Below are positions 9,649 to 47,431 of a stretch of 64,000 nt of DNA, piece by piece. The stretch covers positions 180,854,001 through 180,918,000 of the forward strand of contig OZ024742.1 of assembly GCA_964016885.1 (NCBI GenBank), in the 5' to 3' direction. Both the position numbers and the translations under genes were made by a program. The notes beneath the pieces are model-generated. The model ran no database searches and was not told the origin of the DNA. It worked only from the letters and a program-made list of their open reading frames with translations. Each line of letters opens with the position of its first letter. Positions within the stretch are counted from its first letter, which is position 1. Origin of the DNA: Eledone cirrhosa (taxonomy: Eukaryota).

Positions 9649-9650
<2 letters not shown>

Positions 9651-10128
9651 TTTCTGAATTTGATTAGCAAGATTATTTATCTAAAAACATGTGTTGAAAC
9701 CGATATTGTTATGCTTTGGGAGGGTCATGTTGCCAATAAGAAACACATGCACCAGTTGCTTTCACTTCGATTTATTATAAATTAAATTTATAAATTTAGG
9801 AATTTATAAATTTCCGGTTGGTTGGTTGGTTCCACAACCAGACGATTGTTCATATATTGTCAAAGTTCTTTCGTCACCTTGTTTTTTCCAAAACAAGATG
9901 ACGTAGGACAGAACAAAGGAGAGGCACAAAAACAAAGAAAAGAATCCCCAGTCACTGAAGAGGTCACATAATGTGTGACGAAAGAAGTTTGACACTATAT
10001 GAACAATCGTCTGGTTGTGGAACCAACCAACCAACCGGAAATTTATAAATTCCTAAATTTATAATAAATTGAAGTGAAAGCAACTGGTGCTTGTGTTTCT
10101 TATTGGCAACATGACCCTCCCAAAGCAT

Positions 10129-10136
<8 letters not shown>
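9649..10136. mobile_element. non-autonomous Penelope-like fold-back element in (TA)n
   Basis: Inverted arms 9703-9877 / 9975-10136, unpaired 54-nt tail 9649-9702, HHR motif at 9951-9993, (TA)n on both sides. Confidence 0.8.
9951..9993 (+). ncRNA. minimal type I hammerhead ribozyme motif
   Basis: GUCA-CUGAAGA-g-GUCACA(uaaug)UGUGAC-GAAA-gaag-UU-UGAC; stem I GUCA/UGAC, vestigial helix III. Confidence 0.65.
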
Positions 10137-10167
<31 letters not shown>

Positions 10168-12554
10168 GAATGACCTTACATAAAGATGGTAATGTACTCA
10201 ATTCCTAATTGCTATAAAACTCTTCCAGACTGTAAGTTCATTCACTTACTTATCTGATCTTCTTATGTCATATATATGTCATATATATATGACATATATA
10301 GTTCAAAGAAACGTCAAAACAGAGGTATGAAAATCTTATTAGTTTTATGCTTTATATGGAAAAAGGGAAAGAAAGTTCGATGTGTAAGGCTTTAGCCCTT
10401 CTTCAGGTGTACCAAACATATATACACACATGGTATTTGAGACATTTTGTCTAAGCAATTCTTCCTTTTGAATTATAGTAGTGCTCCTAAAAATAATATT
10501 TTTAATTTTAAATCAATTGATCTGGCTTAAGGTTCTAACAGTGGCTCTTTTTACCACTCTGGTTGACCTGGGCATTTGTCAGACAATATGATTAATAGTT
10601 ATTTACATTTATTGGATTTGGTGTATATATACTCGTATATATATGTGTGTGTGTGTGTACATACCGATTGTTAGGGAAATTATGAGATGCAATAGTTTAT
10701 GTTTTTGTCGCATCTCCAATGGAGGAGTGGATTCGTGGTAAGATTGAGGGAGGTCATAGGGATGATAAGTAAAGTAAATCATGTGTAGGTAACAATAGGT
10801 TATGATCTCAGATAACTTTGGTTGGCTGATGTTTCTACTAAGTGAAACGATTTCATACAGGCCCCTTTCAATGGCTCACATTTCATGAATTATTCTTTAC
10901 TGTCACCTTACTTTTAACACAATCTAACCATTCTGTTGGAATTTCAGGAAAGTAATTCAATTCCTAACAAAACACCAGCCTACATCCTAAAGTTAGGAAA
11001 GAAATATAATCAGGTTTCACCTGTCATACTGTAGAAGATTAAAACCATGAATTTCGTGGAACTTTGTAGCTCTACTTTATAAACATTTCCCAGCTGACAT
11101 TTAGGTAAGACAATTTATTCAATAAAAATAAGATAAAGGTCAGTTACAGTTGCGTCTGGAATATAGGAAGCATTATATAAAAAATATAATGACAGGGTAC
11201 AAAGATAATAAATAGTTGCAGAATATATATGGAACTAAAAATGTGAAAATTCTGAATACTTATTGAGGGATATTTGAGAAAATGTAATGTTTACTATCGT
11301 ATGGTTAAAGCCAGCAAAATTAAGGATGGTATAGAAGATTTAGAGACAATCATGATCATCTTCTTCACGCTCATTTTTCCTTGCTTGTATGGGTTGGACA
11401 AGATCTTTTATCTGGTAGGTTTTCTATTGCTGGATGCCTATAACTTCTTCTAAGTTTGATATATTCTGCTGGCAATTGTTGAGCTATTATGCTGCAGAAT
11501 GTATCATTTGTGATGAGTAGAGATAAATTGTTGTCACTGCAGGTTGTATGAGTAGTATTGATATGTTATTTTCAGCAACTAGTACCCCCCCCCCCCCACA
11601 CACACACACACATATAAATTGTGTGTGTGTTAGTGACATGAGAAAAAGCACCCATTCCACAGTGTATGGTGGTCATTTCAGTGAAACAACAAAAAAATAA
11701 ATAATCCAGTCTACACTGTAAAGTGGTTGGTATTAGGAAGGGCATCAAACCATAGAAACCAAGTCAATATACTAATCAGCATGGTCTCCAAATGATGATG
11801 ATGATGATATGTATATATATATATATATATAGAGAGAGAGATAGATCAAAATAAAATTACTTCAATCATATTATACCATAAATAGCTCAAATGCTTATAG
11901 AGGCTAAAAACTATATTTTATGGAGCTTCATTCATACAAATTATATTTAGGAATGATACAATAGGCCTTTTCATACTATTACTGTTTCCCATAGCATTGG
12001 TCAGTCTGAGACTATAATAGAAGACACTTGCCCATGGTGCCAAATCACTGGACAAAACCCAAGACAATGAGGCTGCAAAACCAACTTCTTAACCACACAG
12101 TTAATATTTCAGTGTAAATAATATTAGACTTTAGTAAACATTAATTCGAGAGAAGAAAGCAGAAGAGGTAGAATAACAGGCCAGGGATCATCTATTTATT
12201 TCTTGCTGTAGGACTCTATTATTGATTAAATTACAAAATGATTACCATTCTTTCTTCTCAAATAAAAAAATTAAAAATATAATTAAAACTAGATCTACGG
12301 TAGATCTGAAACATAACAATTATTTATAGTTTAGGAAATGATTTTCTTCTTCAAAAGAATTTTTAATTCCTGTCAGGTTGAGATACATACACATACATTA
12401 ATGCAATCACATGAATAAAAACACTACAAATAAGTTAACAAAAGGAAAAAAGAGCAGGTACATACACCCACAATTACACAGCAAGAGATTATGACATTAC
12501 ATTTCCTCAGTTGCAACAAGGAATGTTGGATTTACACATTCTCAATGACACACT

Positions 12555-12745
12555 ATAATTGTTTCTACTTTAGGCACAAGGCCAGCAATTACCCAGTGTA
12601 TTACTGGTACTTTATTTTTATCGACCCTGTAAGGATGAAAGGCAAAGTCAACCTCGGCGGGATTTGAACTCAGATCGTAAAGGGACGTAACTATGCTGGA
12701 AAGCATGGCGTCCGACTCTCTACCGATACTGCCAATCCACCGCCC
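12555..12745 (-). mobile_element. family A SINE with TSD
   Basis: TGACACACTATA at 12546 and 12746 flanks a full copy. Confidence 0.9.
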
Positions 12746-12795
12746 TGACACACTATATACTTTCCGCCCTGACACACTATAATACACTACAACAA

Positions 12796-13000
12796 GGGAT
12801 GCTTGTGTCACACTTCCTCAGTTACGCATTACCACAGGGAATGCTTGTGTCACACTTCCTCAGTTACGCCTTACCACAGGAATGCTTATGTCACACTTCC
12901 TCTGTTACACATTACCACAGGGAATGCTTATGTCACATTTCCTCAGTTACACCTTATAACAGGGAATGTTACACTCTCTCAGTTACACACTACAACAGGA
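12796..13000. repeat. ~42-bp minisatellite, ~5 copies
   Basis: GGGAATGCTTGTGTCACACTTCCTCAGTTACGCATTACCACA units. Confidence 0.9.
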
Positions 13001-13297
13001 AAAGCACATGTTACAATGTCACAAAACCTTTCTTTACTTGCAAAGATAAACCCTTTCACATTTCTTCCTTTGGAAATCCTGCCAAGTTTCAGTTTCATGT
13101 GTTCTTGTTATCATACCTTCCAATATTATGTTGAAAATAAATAATATCAAAATAGTAATATAATAGATTTTCTGTTGGAATGTAATGTCATTTCTACAAA
13201 TATGGAATGTAAAAATAAAAATATAAACGTTCTTATGAATATCCCCGCATTGGAAATGTTATCAAATAATCTTCTTATTAAGAAAGTTATGGCAGAA

Positions 13298-45929: not shown

Positions 45930-46482
45930 TTAGCTGCGTGCAGGAGAGGAGGTTGCATTGGTATGGACATGTGATGCGTATGATGGATGACAGCTGCATA
46001 AAAAGTGCAGAGCACTAGAAGTTGATGGAAGCCGCAGAGTGGGGGAGACTCAAGAAGACCTGGGATAAGGTGATAAAAACCGACCTTACCCAATTACACC
46101 TCTCAAAAGCGATGACACGACCGTGACTGCTGGCACCACGCAGTAATACAGAAGACCTGACTTCCCCCGGGTACAAGCCAAAGCTGAAGCATATAGACAA
46201 TATGCTGCCACCCCCTCCCACTAAAAAGTGGAGATGCCATGGCAAAAAAGTACACAGCCCACACAGTAAAGTGGTTGTGTAGGCTCAACGGCAAAAAATC
46301 ACCCAGCACTCACTGTAAATGAGCTTGGTGTTAGGAAGGGCATCCAGCTGTAGAAATAAAGCTAGAATCAGTTCCCGTATGAGCAAGACAAGGTCAGCCG
46401 ACCGGACACTGCCCACAACAGGACAACACGTCTAACCCATGCTAGCGCGGATGAACGGATGTAAAATGGTGATGATGATGAT
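45930..46482 (+). mobile_element. RTE LINE 3' end with long 3'UTR
   Basis: ERRLHWYGHVMRM...LKKTWDKVI, then tandem units, GGTGTTAGGAAGGGCATCC and (GAT)n tail. Confidence 0.8.
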
Positions 46483-46564
46483 ATATATATGTATATTGGT
46501 GCTCTGAAATAGCGATGTATATATGCATGTATGTATAGTATATTTGGCAATTTAATTAAACAAT

Positions 46565-46907
46565 GGAGGCACATGGCTTAGTGGTTAGAGCATTGGCCTT
46601 GAAATCGAAAGGTTGTGAGTTCAATTCTCAGACCGGGAGATGTGTTGTTTCCTTGAGCAAGACACTTTATTTCACATTGCTCCAGTTTACTCAGCTGTAG
46701 AAATGAGATGATAGGGACTGGGGTCCATATCATTCCACTGTAAAGTGGTCGTGGAGGTGCCACGGCAAAAAAAGCACCCAGCACTCACTGTAAATGAGGT
46801 TGGTGTTAGGAAGGGCATCCATCTGTAGAAATCAAGCTAGAATCAGTTCCCGTCCCACCCTTGCAAGCAGGGAAAAAGCGGACGTAAAATGAAATGAAAT
46901 GAAATGA
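46565..46907 (+). mobile_element. family B SINE, full length
   Basis: GGCTTAGTGGTTAGAGC A-box, B-box, CORE, RTE-derived body and tail; splits TTAATTAAACA|TACGG. Confidence 0.9.
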
Positions 46908-47063
46908 TACGGTATATTGCCAAATATAATATACATACATTCATGCATACATCGCTATTTCAGAGCACCAATCCTAATACTTAATTTTTGCTGGACTGGC
47001 AATCGCTCTGTATAATCAGCTCCTGATTATTACTGGAATTCTATAAGAATCCAGCTTCGATAA

Positions 47064-47151
47064 TTTTCAGCGGCAGAGGAGTGCGTGGCTCTGATGAATG
47101 CCAACCAGCGTGAAACAGACTGTCAGCTTCTCTCTCTTATTTCGCTGAAAA
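47064..47151 (+). ncRNA. canonical type I hammerhead ribozyme
   Basis: GGCU-CUGAUGA-AUGC(caacca)GCGU-GAAA-CAGACUG-UC/AGCU; distal stem I UUUUCAGCG/CGCUGAAAA; predicted cut after C47124. Confidence 0.85.
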
Positions 47152-47289
47152 GAAGTAAGTGACATAGTCACTACCTTAAAACTGATAGTGTATGGTCTTC
47201 TAAATGTTTTTAATTAAACATACGGTATATTGCCAAATATACTATACATACATTCATATATATATATTTATATATATATATATATATAT

Positions 47290-47430
47290 ATATTGTTATA
47301 CTTTGGGAGGGTCATGTTGCCAATAAGAAACACACGCACTTATTGGCAACATGACCCTCCCAAAGTATAACAATATCGGTTTCAACACACGATTTCAGAT
47401 AAAAAATCTTGCTAAACAAATTCAGAAACG

Positions 47431-47431
<1 letters not shown>
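47290..47431. mobile_element. minimal fold-back copy of the 9649-10136 family
   Basis: Perfect hairpin 47291-47327 / 47339-47375 plus tail 47377-47431 homologous to 9649-9702; (TA)n both sides. Confidence 0.85.

What the first reader, a model, noticed from the sequence alone, without database searches (positions are those of the whole stretch)
9649..47431. Recurring 'tail plus inverted arms' ribozyme elements targeted to (TA)n: candidate non-autonomous retroelement system
Seen: five loci from four sequence-unrelated families (9649-10136 and 47290-47431; 21022-24147; 43343-43494; 46495-47257) share one design. Two inverted arms point their 3' ends outward, one arm has an extra tail of 28-137 nt, both junctions lie in TA repeats, there is no ORF, and a full or partial hammerhead motif is present in the family. 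Established: Penelope-like elements carry hammerheads in their pseudo-LTRs and form inverted pLTR structures with a tail. Inference: a diverse set of non-coding RNAs parasitising a Penelope RT/GIY-YIG enzyme with (TA)n preference, integrating by a fold-back or two-ended priming step. Whether this has been described in this lineage needs a search.
Basis: partly seen in the sequence, partly recalled or inferred. Interest (0 to 1): 0.85.

Follow-up and report, generated by a model that had tools for sequence, protein, structure and literature searches.

The report
Two-ended Penelope retrotransposon stubs plus retrozyme
These five inverted-arm repeats in TA microsatellites are ordinary Penelope-type retrotransposon insertions (three families are cut-short ends of reverse-transcriptase-coding elements, one is a protein-less ribozyme repeat), and their strict one-short-end-one-tailed-end pattern suggests that both ends of the cut DNA likely prime copying on one RNA.

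Summary
The anatomy is real: five insertions, inverted arms pointing outward, a tail on one arm, TA on both sides, hammerhead (HHR) motifs. The reading 'four non-coding parasites' is mostly wrong. Family A is the 3' end of a Neptune-like PLE (995-aa RT+GIY-YIG frame). C is the 3' end of a young 6.65-kb Hydra-clade PLE (812-aa ORF). D lies at the end of a decayed Hydra-like ORF. Only E is ORF-less: a ~315-nt type I HHR retrozyme carrying the PLE insertion signature; its partner was not found. Inverted pLTRs, tails, (TA)n targets, HHRs and non-autonomous PLEs are all published. What the copies add: 68 classifiable two-ended insertions all pair one short end with one tailed end; both arms of a C insertion share one haplotype (5/7387 differences versus 1.5% between insertions); in five, the arms share no sequence, which excludes simple fold-back; 5' ends pile up at initiator-like sites in C and D. 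Best model: twin priming at two internal start sites of one RNA. New members of a known kind, with a testable mechanistic rule.

The parts
9649..9888 (-). Family A (Neptune-like PLE) inverted arm ending at the tail site; tail 9649-9702
9891..10136 (+). Family A main arm ending at the short site; 3' UTR of the 995-aa RT+GIY-YIG element (L267)
9951..9993 (+). Minimal type I hammerhead of family A (core at 9955); window copy has a mismatch in stem III
   Evidence: core intact in 34 of 42 arms
21022..22378 (-). Family C (Hydra-clade PLE) inverted arm with 137-nt tail (21022-21158)
22268..24147 (+). Family C main arm ending at the short site; 3' 1.87 kb of a 6.65-kb element (inner limit blurred by microsatellite)
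23940..24093 (+). Type I hammerhead of family C with ~35-bp stem II and palindromic stem III; predicted cut after 24083; 23942 is the family's 5'-end hotspot (-205)
   Evidence: (core intact in 55 of 56 arms)
43343..43441 (-). Family D inverted arm with internally deleted tail (43343-43384)
43438..43494 (+). Family D main arm ending at the short site; holds the 3' half of a hammerhead
46495..46554 (-). Family E inverted arm ending at the tail site
46551..47257 (+). Family E main arm: 313-nt monomer (46907-47219) plus partial repeat, ending at the short site; ORF-less retrozyme
46561..46909 (+). Unrelated abundant SINE-like repeat inserted into E (weak tRNA match 46574-46631); not part of the design
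47087..47128 (+). Type I hammerhead of family E (core at 47091, predicted cut after 47124)
   Evidence: (core intact in 28 of 37 arms)
47290..47431 (.). Second family A insertion: short-site arm 47290-47339 (-), tail-site arm 47339-47431 (+)

Best explanation
The five loci are 5'-truncated, head-to-head insertions of Penelope-like elements into (TA)n, each with one arm ending at a fixed short site and the other at a fixed tail site, likely made when a PLE RT/GIY-YIG enzyme cuts both DNA strands and primes copying of one RNA from both broken ends. Shown: the two fixed 3' ends per family (31 to 137 nt apart), their one-of-each pairing, the shared haplotype of the two arms, the link of A, C and D to RT/endonuclease coding DNA, and the lack of such a link for E. 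Inferred: an enzyme dimer holds one RNA at the two start sites; the cDNA begun at the tail site runs through the short site by displacing the other cDNA; the two cDNA 3' ends are joined by a few bases of microhomology; many short copies of C and D stop where the RNA begins (an initiator-like site in the pLTR) because copying started internally near the 5' end of the transcript; E is a ~315-nt ribozyme RNA in tandem or circular form that borrows such an enzyme in trans.
For: Autonomous partners: C unit in L091/L092 with 830-aa stop-to-stop frame and direct 2.2-kb pLTR repeats; A frame of 995 aa ending 140 nt before the window-like sequence, 132 scored copies 93-100% alike; D end collinear (79%, 2183 nt) between L180 and L181 with 38-55% matches to the C thumb and endonuclease. 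Pairing: C 34 of 34 two-ended loci among 40 fetched, A 10, D 11, E 13. Three apparently one-armed C copies turned out to carry a 13-36-nt inverted tail-end remnant, as the model predicted. One template: 5 differences in 7387 sites within 27 C insertions, 2301 in 155406 between; 18 of 18 polymorphic sites concordant. Arms without shared sequence in L242, L245, L248, L252, L253; either arm can be the longer. 5' ends at -202 to -207 in 17 of 40 C loci, on several haplotypes; 23 of 29 D main arms stop within 3 nt of one site. In vitro a Poseidon PLE cuts and extends both strands, starts at two internal sites that bound the tail, and is predicted to be a dimer (PMC11167929).
Against: No enzyme or RNA was tested. 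Arms could have been made alike after insertion by conversion, or by two RNAs from one source locus. 18 further two-armed loci (A 2, D 11, E 5) could not be classed; D L142 may be short+short and E L203 runs past the tail on both arms. Two C copies (L243, L246) show no second end. Symmetric junctions centred on palindromes (L221 at -284; many D copies) also fit hairpin formation. The D sample is conditioned on a pattern that begins at the hotspot, and 16 of the C loci were picked for being short. 5' ends of A and E cluster only loosely. No intact D ribozyme and no partner of E were found.
Confidence: 0.7

Rival explanations
1. Fold-back or self-priming: one primed cDNA (or an antisense template) folds on itself and is copied back, and the tail is left by endonuclease resolution of the intermediate (PMC3846280 discussion; PMC8557442).
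For: Arms of one insertion are near-identical; several junctions are symmetric and palindromic.
Against: Five C insertions have arms with no shared sequence, and the tail is on the longer arm in some copies and on the shorter in others.
Confidence: 0.12
2. Two-ended priming on two separate RNA molecules from the same source locus (for example an RNA dimer held by the palindromic hammerhead stem III), one per enzyme subunit.
For: Overlapping arms need no strand displacement; stem III of C is palindromic; PLE hammerheads are proposed to act as dimers (PMC4209133).
Against: It does not by itself explain why the two ends always use different start sites, and no insertion mixed two haplotypes.
Confidence: 0.13
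3. One reading: all four families are protein-less RNAs that parasitise a PLE enzyme.
For: True for E as far as tested; short copies of C and D far outnumber long ones, and short D copies might be re-mobilised.
Against: A, C and D continue upstream into RT/endonuclease coding DNA; short C copies share haplotypes with long ones.
Confidence: 0.04
4. TA-targeting DNA transposons or MITEs with terminal inverted repeats, or assembly fold-back artefacts.
For: Inverted termini and TA flanks.
Against: Ends are asymmetric at two fixed sites, inner junctions vary, many copies are one-armed or tandem, and the linked ORFs have RT motifs.
Confidence: 0.01

Closest known systems
Hydra-clade PLEs (Craig et al. 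2021, PMC8557442)
   Same: Families C and D: C-terminal GIY-YIG, RWR for RWK, DKT, CxCX5C linker, CxxC and CxH, hammerhead in the 3' region, (TA)n targets, tandem and inverted pLTRs, tail at one end.
   Different: C unit is 6.65 kb (described ones generally under 3 kb) with a microsatellite-rich 3' region; tails of 137 and ~78 nt against 30-40; very long stem II in the ribozyme; sharp 5'-end hotspots.
Neptune-clade PLEs (Arkhipova 2006, as summarised in PMC8557442)
   Same: Family A: RT, CX2-5CxxC linker before the GIY-YIG, minimal type I hammerhead, microsatellite target.
   Different: 54-nt tail; clade not tested by a tree (Nematis also has a linker finger).
Poseidon PAc of Anolis (Frangieh et al. 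2024, PMC11167929)
   Same: Two internal RT start sites bounding the tail, both strands cut and extended, AT-rich target, predicted dimer.
   Different: In the parts read it does not report that the two sites are used one each in a single insertion, nor run-off at the transcript start; start sites here lie upstream of the ORF.
Non-LTR retrozymes (Cervera and de la Pena 2020, PMC7229834; Li et al. 2026, 10.64898/2026.07.22.740005)
   Same: Family E: ~315-nt monomer, type I hammerhead, partial tandem repeats, no ORF, low GC.
   Different: Those papers infer the PLE link from co-occurrence and pLTR similarity; E shows the PLE insertion anatomy itself (two fixed ends, inverted arm, TA target). No copy seen held two complete same-strand monomers beyond ~1.6 units; circular RNA not tested.
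Non-autonomous Chlamys PLEs, MRC1 and Chlamys-N4 (PMC8557442, PMC9977147)
   Same: Non-autonomous PLEs with pLTRs, short insertions, microsatellite targets.
   Different: Green algae, (C)n or (CA)n targets, no canonical hammerhead; they share 3' ends with known partners, which was not found for E.
Twin priming of LINE-1 (recalled, no call)
   Same: Both ends of the cut target prime on one RNA and give a 5' inversion joined by microhomology.
   Different: Here both start sites are fixed and internal, arms often overlap, and the two-ended form is the rule rather than a minority.

Membership tests
EN+ Penelope-like element (A, C) | Single ORF with RT followed by GIY-YIG endonuclease | tested here: met
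   C: 812 aa from Met with YRDD and YIG motifs; A: 995-aa frame with YVDD, VYIGET, weak RVT_1 match below cut-off. Pfam gave no match for C; motifs read by eye; 118 unnamed homologues.
EN+ Penelope-like element (A, C) | Partial tandem pLTRs, inverted 5'-truncated copy, optional tail | tested here: met
   (tandem pLTR shown for C only)
EN+ Penelope-like element (A, C) | Type I hammerhead in the pLTR | tested here: met
   Motif and fold only
EN+ Penelope-like element (A, C) | RT groups with PLE/telomerase RTs in a tree | not tested
   No named reference set was fetched; PDB sequence search gave nothing
Hydra clade (C) | RWK-type motif, DKT, CxCX5C linker, CxxC and CxH, (TA)n target | tested here: met
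   Read from the ORF against section 11 of PMC8557442
Hydra clade (D) | Linked Hydra-type ORF and complete hammerhead | tested here: inconclusive
   Only decayed ORF remnants, in a sister subfamily 81-88% like the window copy; 5' half of the ribozyme in 2 genome matches, neither intact downstream
Neptune clade (A) | CX2-5CxxC finger between RT and endonuclease | tested here: met
   motif definition. Does not exclude Nematis.
Non-LTR retrozyme (E) | 150-450-nt monomer with type I hammerhead in tandem, no ORF, no LTR | tested here: met
   21 of 30 tail-spanning copies run on into the monomer, 9 end there, none into an ORF
Non-LTR retrozyme (E) | Self-cleavage and abundant circular RNA | not testable with these tools
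Non-autonomous PLE (E) | Autonomous partner sharing the 3' end and tail | tested here: inconclusive
   No similarity to A, C or D loci; only ~90 of some 2000 candidate places seen
TIR DNA transposon / MITE | Symmetric terminal inverted repeats of fixed length | tested here: not met

The most novel reading that the evidence does not exclude
PLE insertion is an obligate twin-priming reaction: one enzyme dimer uses both fixed start sites of a single RNA, one per DNA end, which alone explains inverted pLTRs and the one-sided tail across Hydra- and Neptune-type elements; the 5' ends of short copies map the element's promoter; and an animal retrozyme (E) is inserted by exactly this reaction, direct genomic proof that retrozymes ride on PLE enzymes.
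Probability: 0.55. Interest if true: 0.62.

Novelty: new member of a known kind. Interest (0 to 1): 0.42.

Why it matters
How PLEs make their inverted pLTRs and one-sided tail is an open question (PMC8557442 and PMC11167929 say so). The young family C gives a clean rule that fits one model and contradicts simple fold-back, and an open ORF with near-identical copies for testing it. Family E gives anatomical support for the so far indirect claim that animal retrozymes are moved by PLEs. For annotation, thousands of short TA-flanked hairpins in this genome are PLE stubs and could be misfiled as MITEs or microRNA hairpins.

Tried and rejected
Rfam at E<=1 found no hammerhead, only microsatellite-driven microRNA matches. 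My first motif scans capped stem II at about 40 nt and missed the C ribozyme; corrected. A first pattern for the 5' half of the D ribozyme gave 7 matches against 6 for the control, so chance; L116 has a D fragment beside it but was not pursued. PLE coding fragments beside E copies (L006, L011, L018, L028 and others) were on the wrong strand or separated by TA and other sequence where looked at (L011) and are read as neighbouring insertions. L299, E arms 4.2 kb apart, has no PLE ORF between them. The A short+short call at L055 is a separate neighbouring element. One search's E analysis failed on a strand slip and was redone; the script's bins were too narrow, so E ends were classed by eye from the printed rows. 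Pfam and PDB sequence searches did not name the C protein. Run search for family C: no RNA holder listed. Four runs of unknown kind, contigs only, showed no joints; summed depth rises near 23940 in one run but such depth is no copy number or RNA start, so it is not used. Earlier scan findings: none. Target-site duplications cannot be read inside TA tracts; no empty sites were available. Repbase and Dfam are not among the tools, so these families may already be deposited there.
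Full report
Setting. The window is G000:C3:180854001-180918000 of a 3.0-Gb genome. I did not determine the species; its abundant SINE-like repeats look octopus-like to me (recalled, no call).

Observation. All five loci exist as described. All 10 outer junctions abut TA repeats, which cover 2.6% of the window. 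The window has no PLE coding sequence (tblastn empty). Hammerhead motifs: A core at 9955, E at 47091, C at 23949 with a stem II of about 35 bp (fold z -6.25, 0 of 200 shuffles). A descriptor allowing long stem II found 4 motifs in the window against 0.03 expected (100 resamples, none with 3 or more). The core is intact in 34 of 42 A arms, 55 of 56 C arms and 28 of 37 E arms. Rfam found none.

What the families are. C: hits in tandem 6.65 kb apart led to L091 and L092, each with a 2.2-kb direct repeat around an 830-aa stop-to-stop frame. Its motifs match the Hydra clade definition. A 29-nt pattern has 1205 matches. The window copy is the last 1.87 kb plus an inverted 1.36 kb. A: five of the 30 loci (L037, L044, L051, L053, L055) run upstream into endonuclease or RT coding DNA by 130 aa or more; L267 holds a 995-aa frame with RT and GIY-YIG motifs ending 140 nt before sequence 90-92% like the window copy. 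D: a 25-nt pattern has 3350 matches; longer copies lead upstream to the 5' half of a hammerhead and, in L180 and L181 of 5 extended loci, to decayed Hydra-like coding DNA on the same strand. These long copies are a sister subfamily 81-88% like the window copy. E: 2171 candidate places. In 30 best hits and 30 position-ordered ribozyme matches the sequence upstream of the ribozyme follows the 313-316-nt monomer until it is cut off or inverted; of 30 tail-spanning matches 21 continue into the monomer and 9 end. No ORF link and no partner were found.

The pairing rule. Each family has two fixed 3' ends, short (S) and tail (T): 54 nt apart in A, 137 in C, 77-80 in D, about 31 in E. C: from the first 100 pattern matches (34 outward-pointing pairs within 25 kb, none inward) I fetched 27 pairs and 13 unpaired matches. 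All 27 pairs are S+T (L227 read by eye), as are 4 of the unpaired ones with a short second arm. The model predicted tiny remnants in the rest; 3 of the 5 short ones have a 13-36-nt inverted T remnant, 2 have none, and 4 long copies run out of the stretch fetched. So 34 of 34 two-ended loci among 40. A: 28 loci (2 duplicates dropped), all main ends at S (12) or T (16); 13 with an inverted hit, 10 S+T, 2 unclassed, 1 a separate element. D: 29 loci (1 duplicate dropped), 22 with an inverted arm, 11 S+T, 11 with one end off both sites, mostly diverged or partial tails; L142 may be S+S. E: 56 loci (4 duplicates dropped), 18 with an inverted arm, 13 S+T and 5 unclassed, judged by eye. Total 68 S+T, no clear T+T, at most one S+S.

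One template, no fold-back. In 26 fetched C insertions plus the window copy, the two arms differ at 5 of 7387 sites, against 2301 of 155406 between insertions; all 18 recurrent variants are concordant, and haplotypes recur across loci, so they are inherited from source elements. In L242, L245, L248, L252 and L253 the T arm lies wholly inside the tail and shares nothing with the S arm; the T arm reaches further 5' in some copies (L235, L237, L238) and the S arm in others (L231, L234, L236). A fold-back copy cannot give non-overlapping arms. Conversion after insertion or two RNAs from one locus remain possible for the identity.

5' ends. In 17 of 40 C loci an arm stops at -202 to -207 (window 23942), the A of a TCATT at the foot of ribozyme stem I, on several haplotypes and with different junctions; spacing of 345-374 nt occurs in 10 of the 34 listed pairs. 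Two arms stop at -63/-62, the predicted ribozyme cut (L230, L245). In D, 23 of 29 main arms stop within 3 nt of the A of TCAGTT or TTAGTT (sample conditioned on the pattern). These resemble initiator motifs (consensus recalled). The D. virilis Penelope transcript starts inside the pLTR (PMC2377424), and PAc starts copying internally (PMC11167929), so I infer run-off at the transcript start. A and E show only loose clusters.

Mechanism. Inferred: endonuclease cuts both strands of (TA)n; each 3' end primes, with 2-4 nt of TA match, at one of the two start sites on one RNA; cDNAs stop at random, at the ribozyme cut or at the RNA 5' end; their ends are joined head to head. E is likely copied from a tandem or circular RNA by a PLE enzyme in trans. 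Confidence 0.7 for the whole; above 0.95 that these are PLE insertions.

Known work. PMC8557442 (passages; section 11) describes partial tandems, inverted copies, a 30-40-bp tail often at one end only, (TA)n bias and non-autonomous elements. PMC3846280 (passages) describes the same and proposes self-priming. PMC11167929 (parts 1-2 of 4) ties the tail to two RT start sites. PMC4209133 (passages) covers PLE hammerheads. PMC7229834 (passages) and 10.64898/2026.07.22.740005 (parts 1-3 of 5) define animal retrozymes and argue for PLE origin. PMC9977147 (passages) shows an active autonomous and non-autonomous PLE pair. PMC13282606 (passages) lists 31 recently active PLE families in Octopus vulgaris and does not use the words ribozyme or retrozyme. 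PMC8969392 (passages) repeats the anatomy. [quoted passage not shown]

Verdict. Real, explained by known PLE biology, not a new system. New members of known kinds, with a quantified rule that makes an open mechanistic question testable. Interest 0.42.

Noticed in passing
   Followed up: partly
window 7133-6940 (-): Old, decayed relative of family A with a broken hammerhead core.
   Followed up: partly
L091 8930-9020: Another hammerhead family with palindromic stem III directly beside the family C element.
   Followed up: no
L006, L009, L011, L018, L136, L185, L276, L294: Fragments of several other PLE families (27-77% protein identity to A or C) in the flanks; PLEs of many families pile up in the same TA tracts.
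   Followed up: no
L299 1166-5323: E arms (short left, tail right) enclose 4.2 kb of non-PLE DNA: later insertion or host DNA carried in trans.
   Followed up: partly
L219, L220: Three-segment C insertions with an internal repeat of the ribozyme region, suggesting re-priming or template jumps.
   Followed up: no
window 46561-46909, 26702-27000, 27204-27555; 44325-44690, 9136-9327: Two abundant SINE-like families, one with a weak tRNA head.
   Followed up: no
L091 4755-5183: Three degenerate ~85-nt repeats right after the family C stop codon, one resembling a hammerhead core in L092.
   Followed up: no
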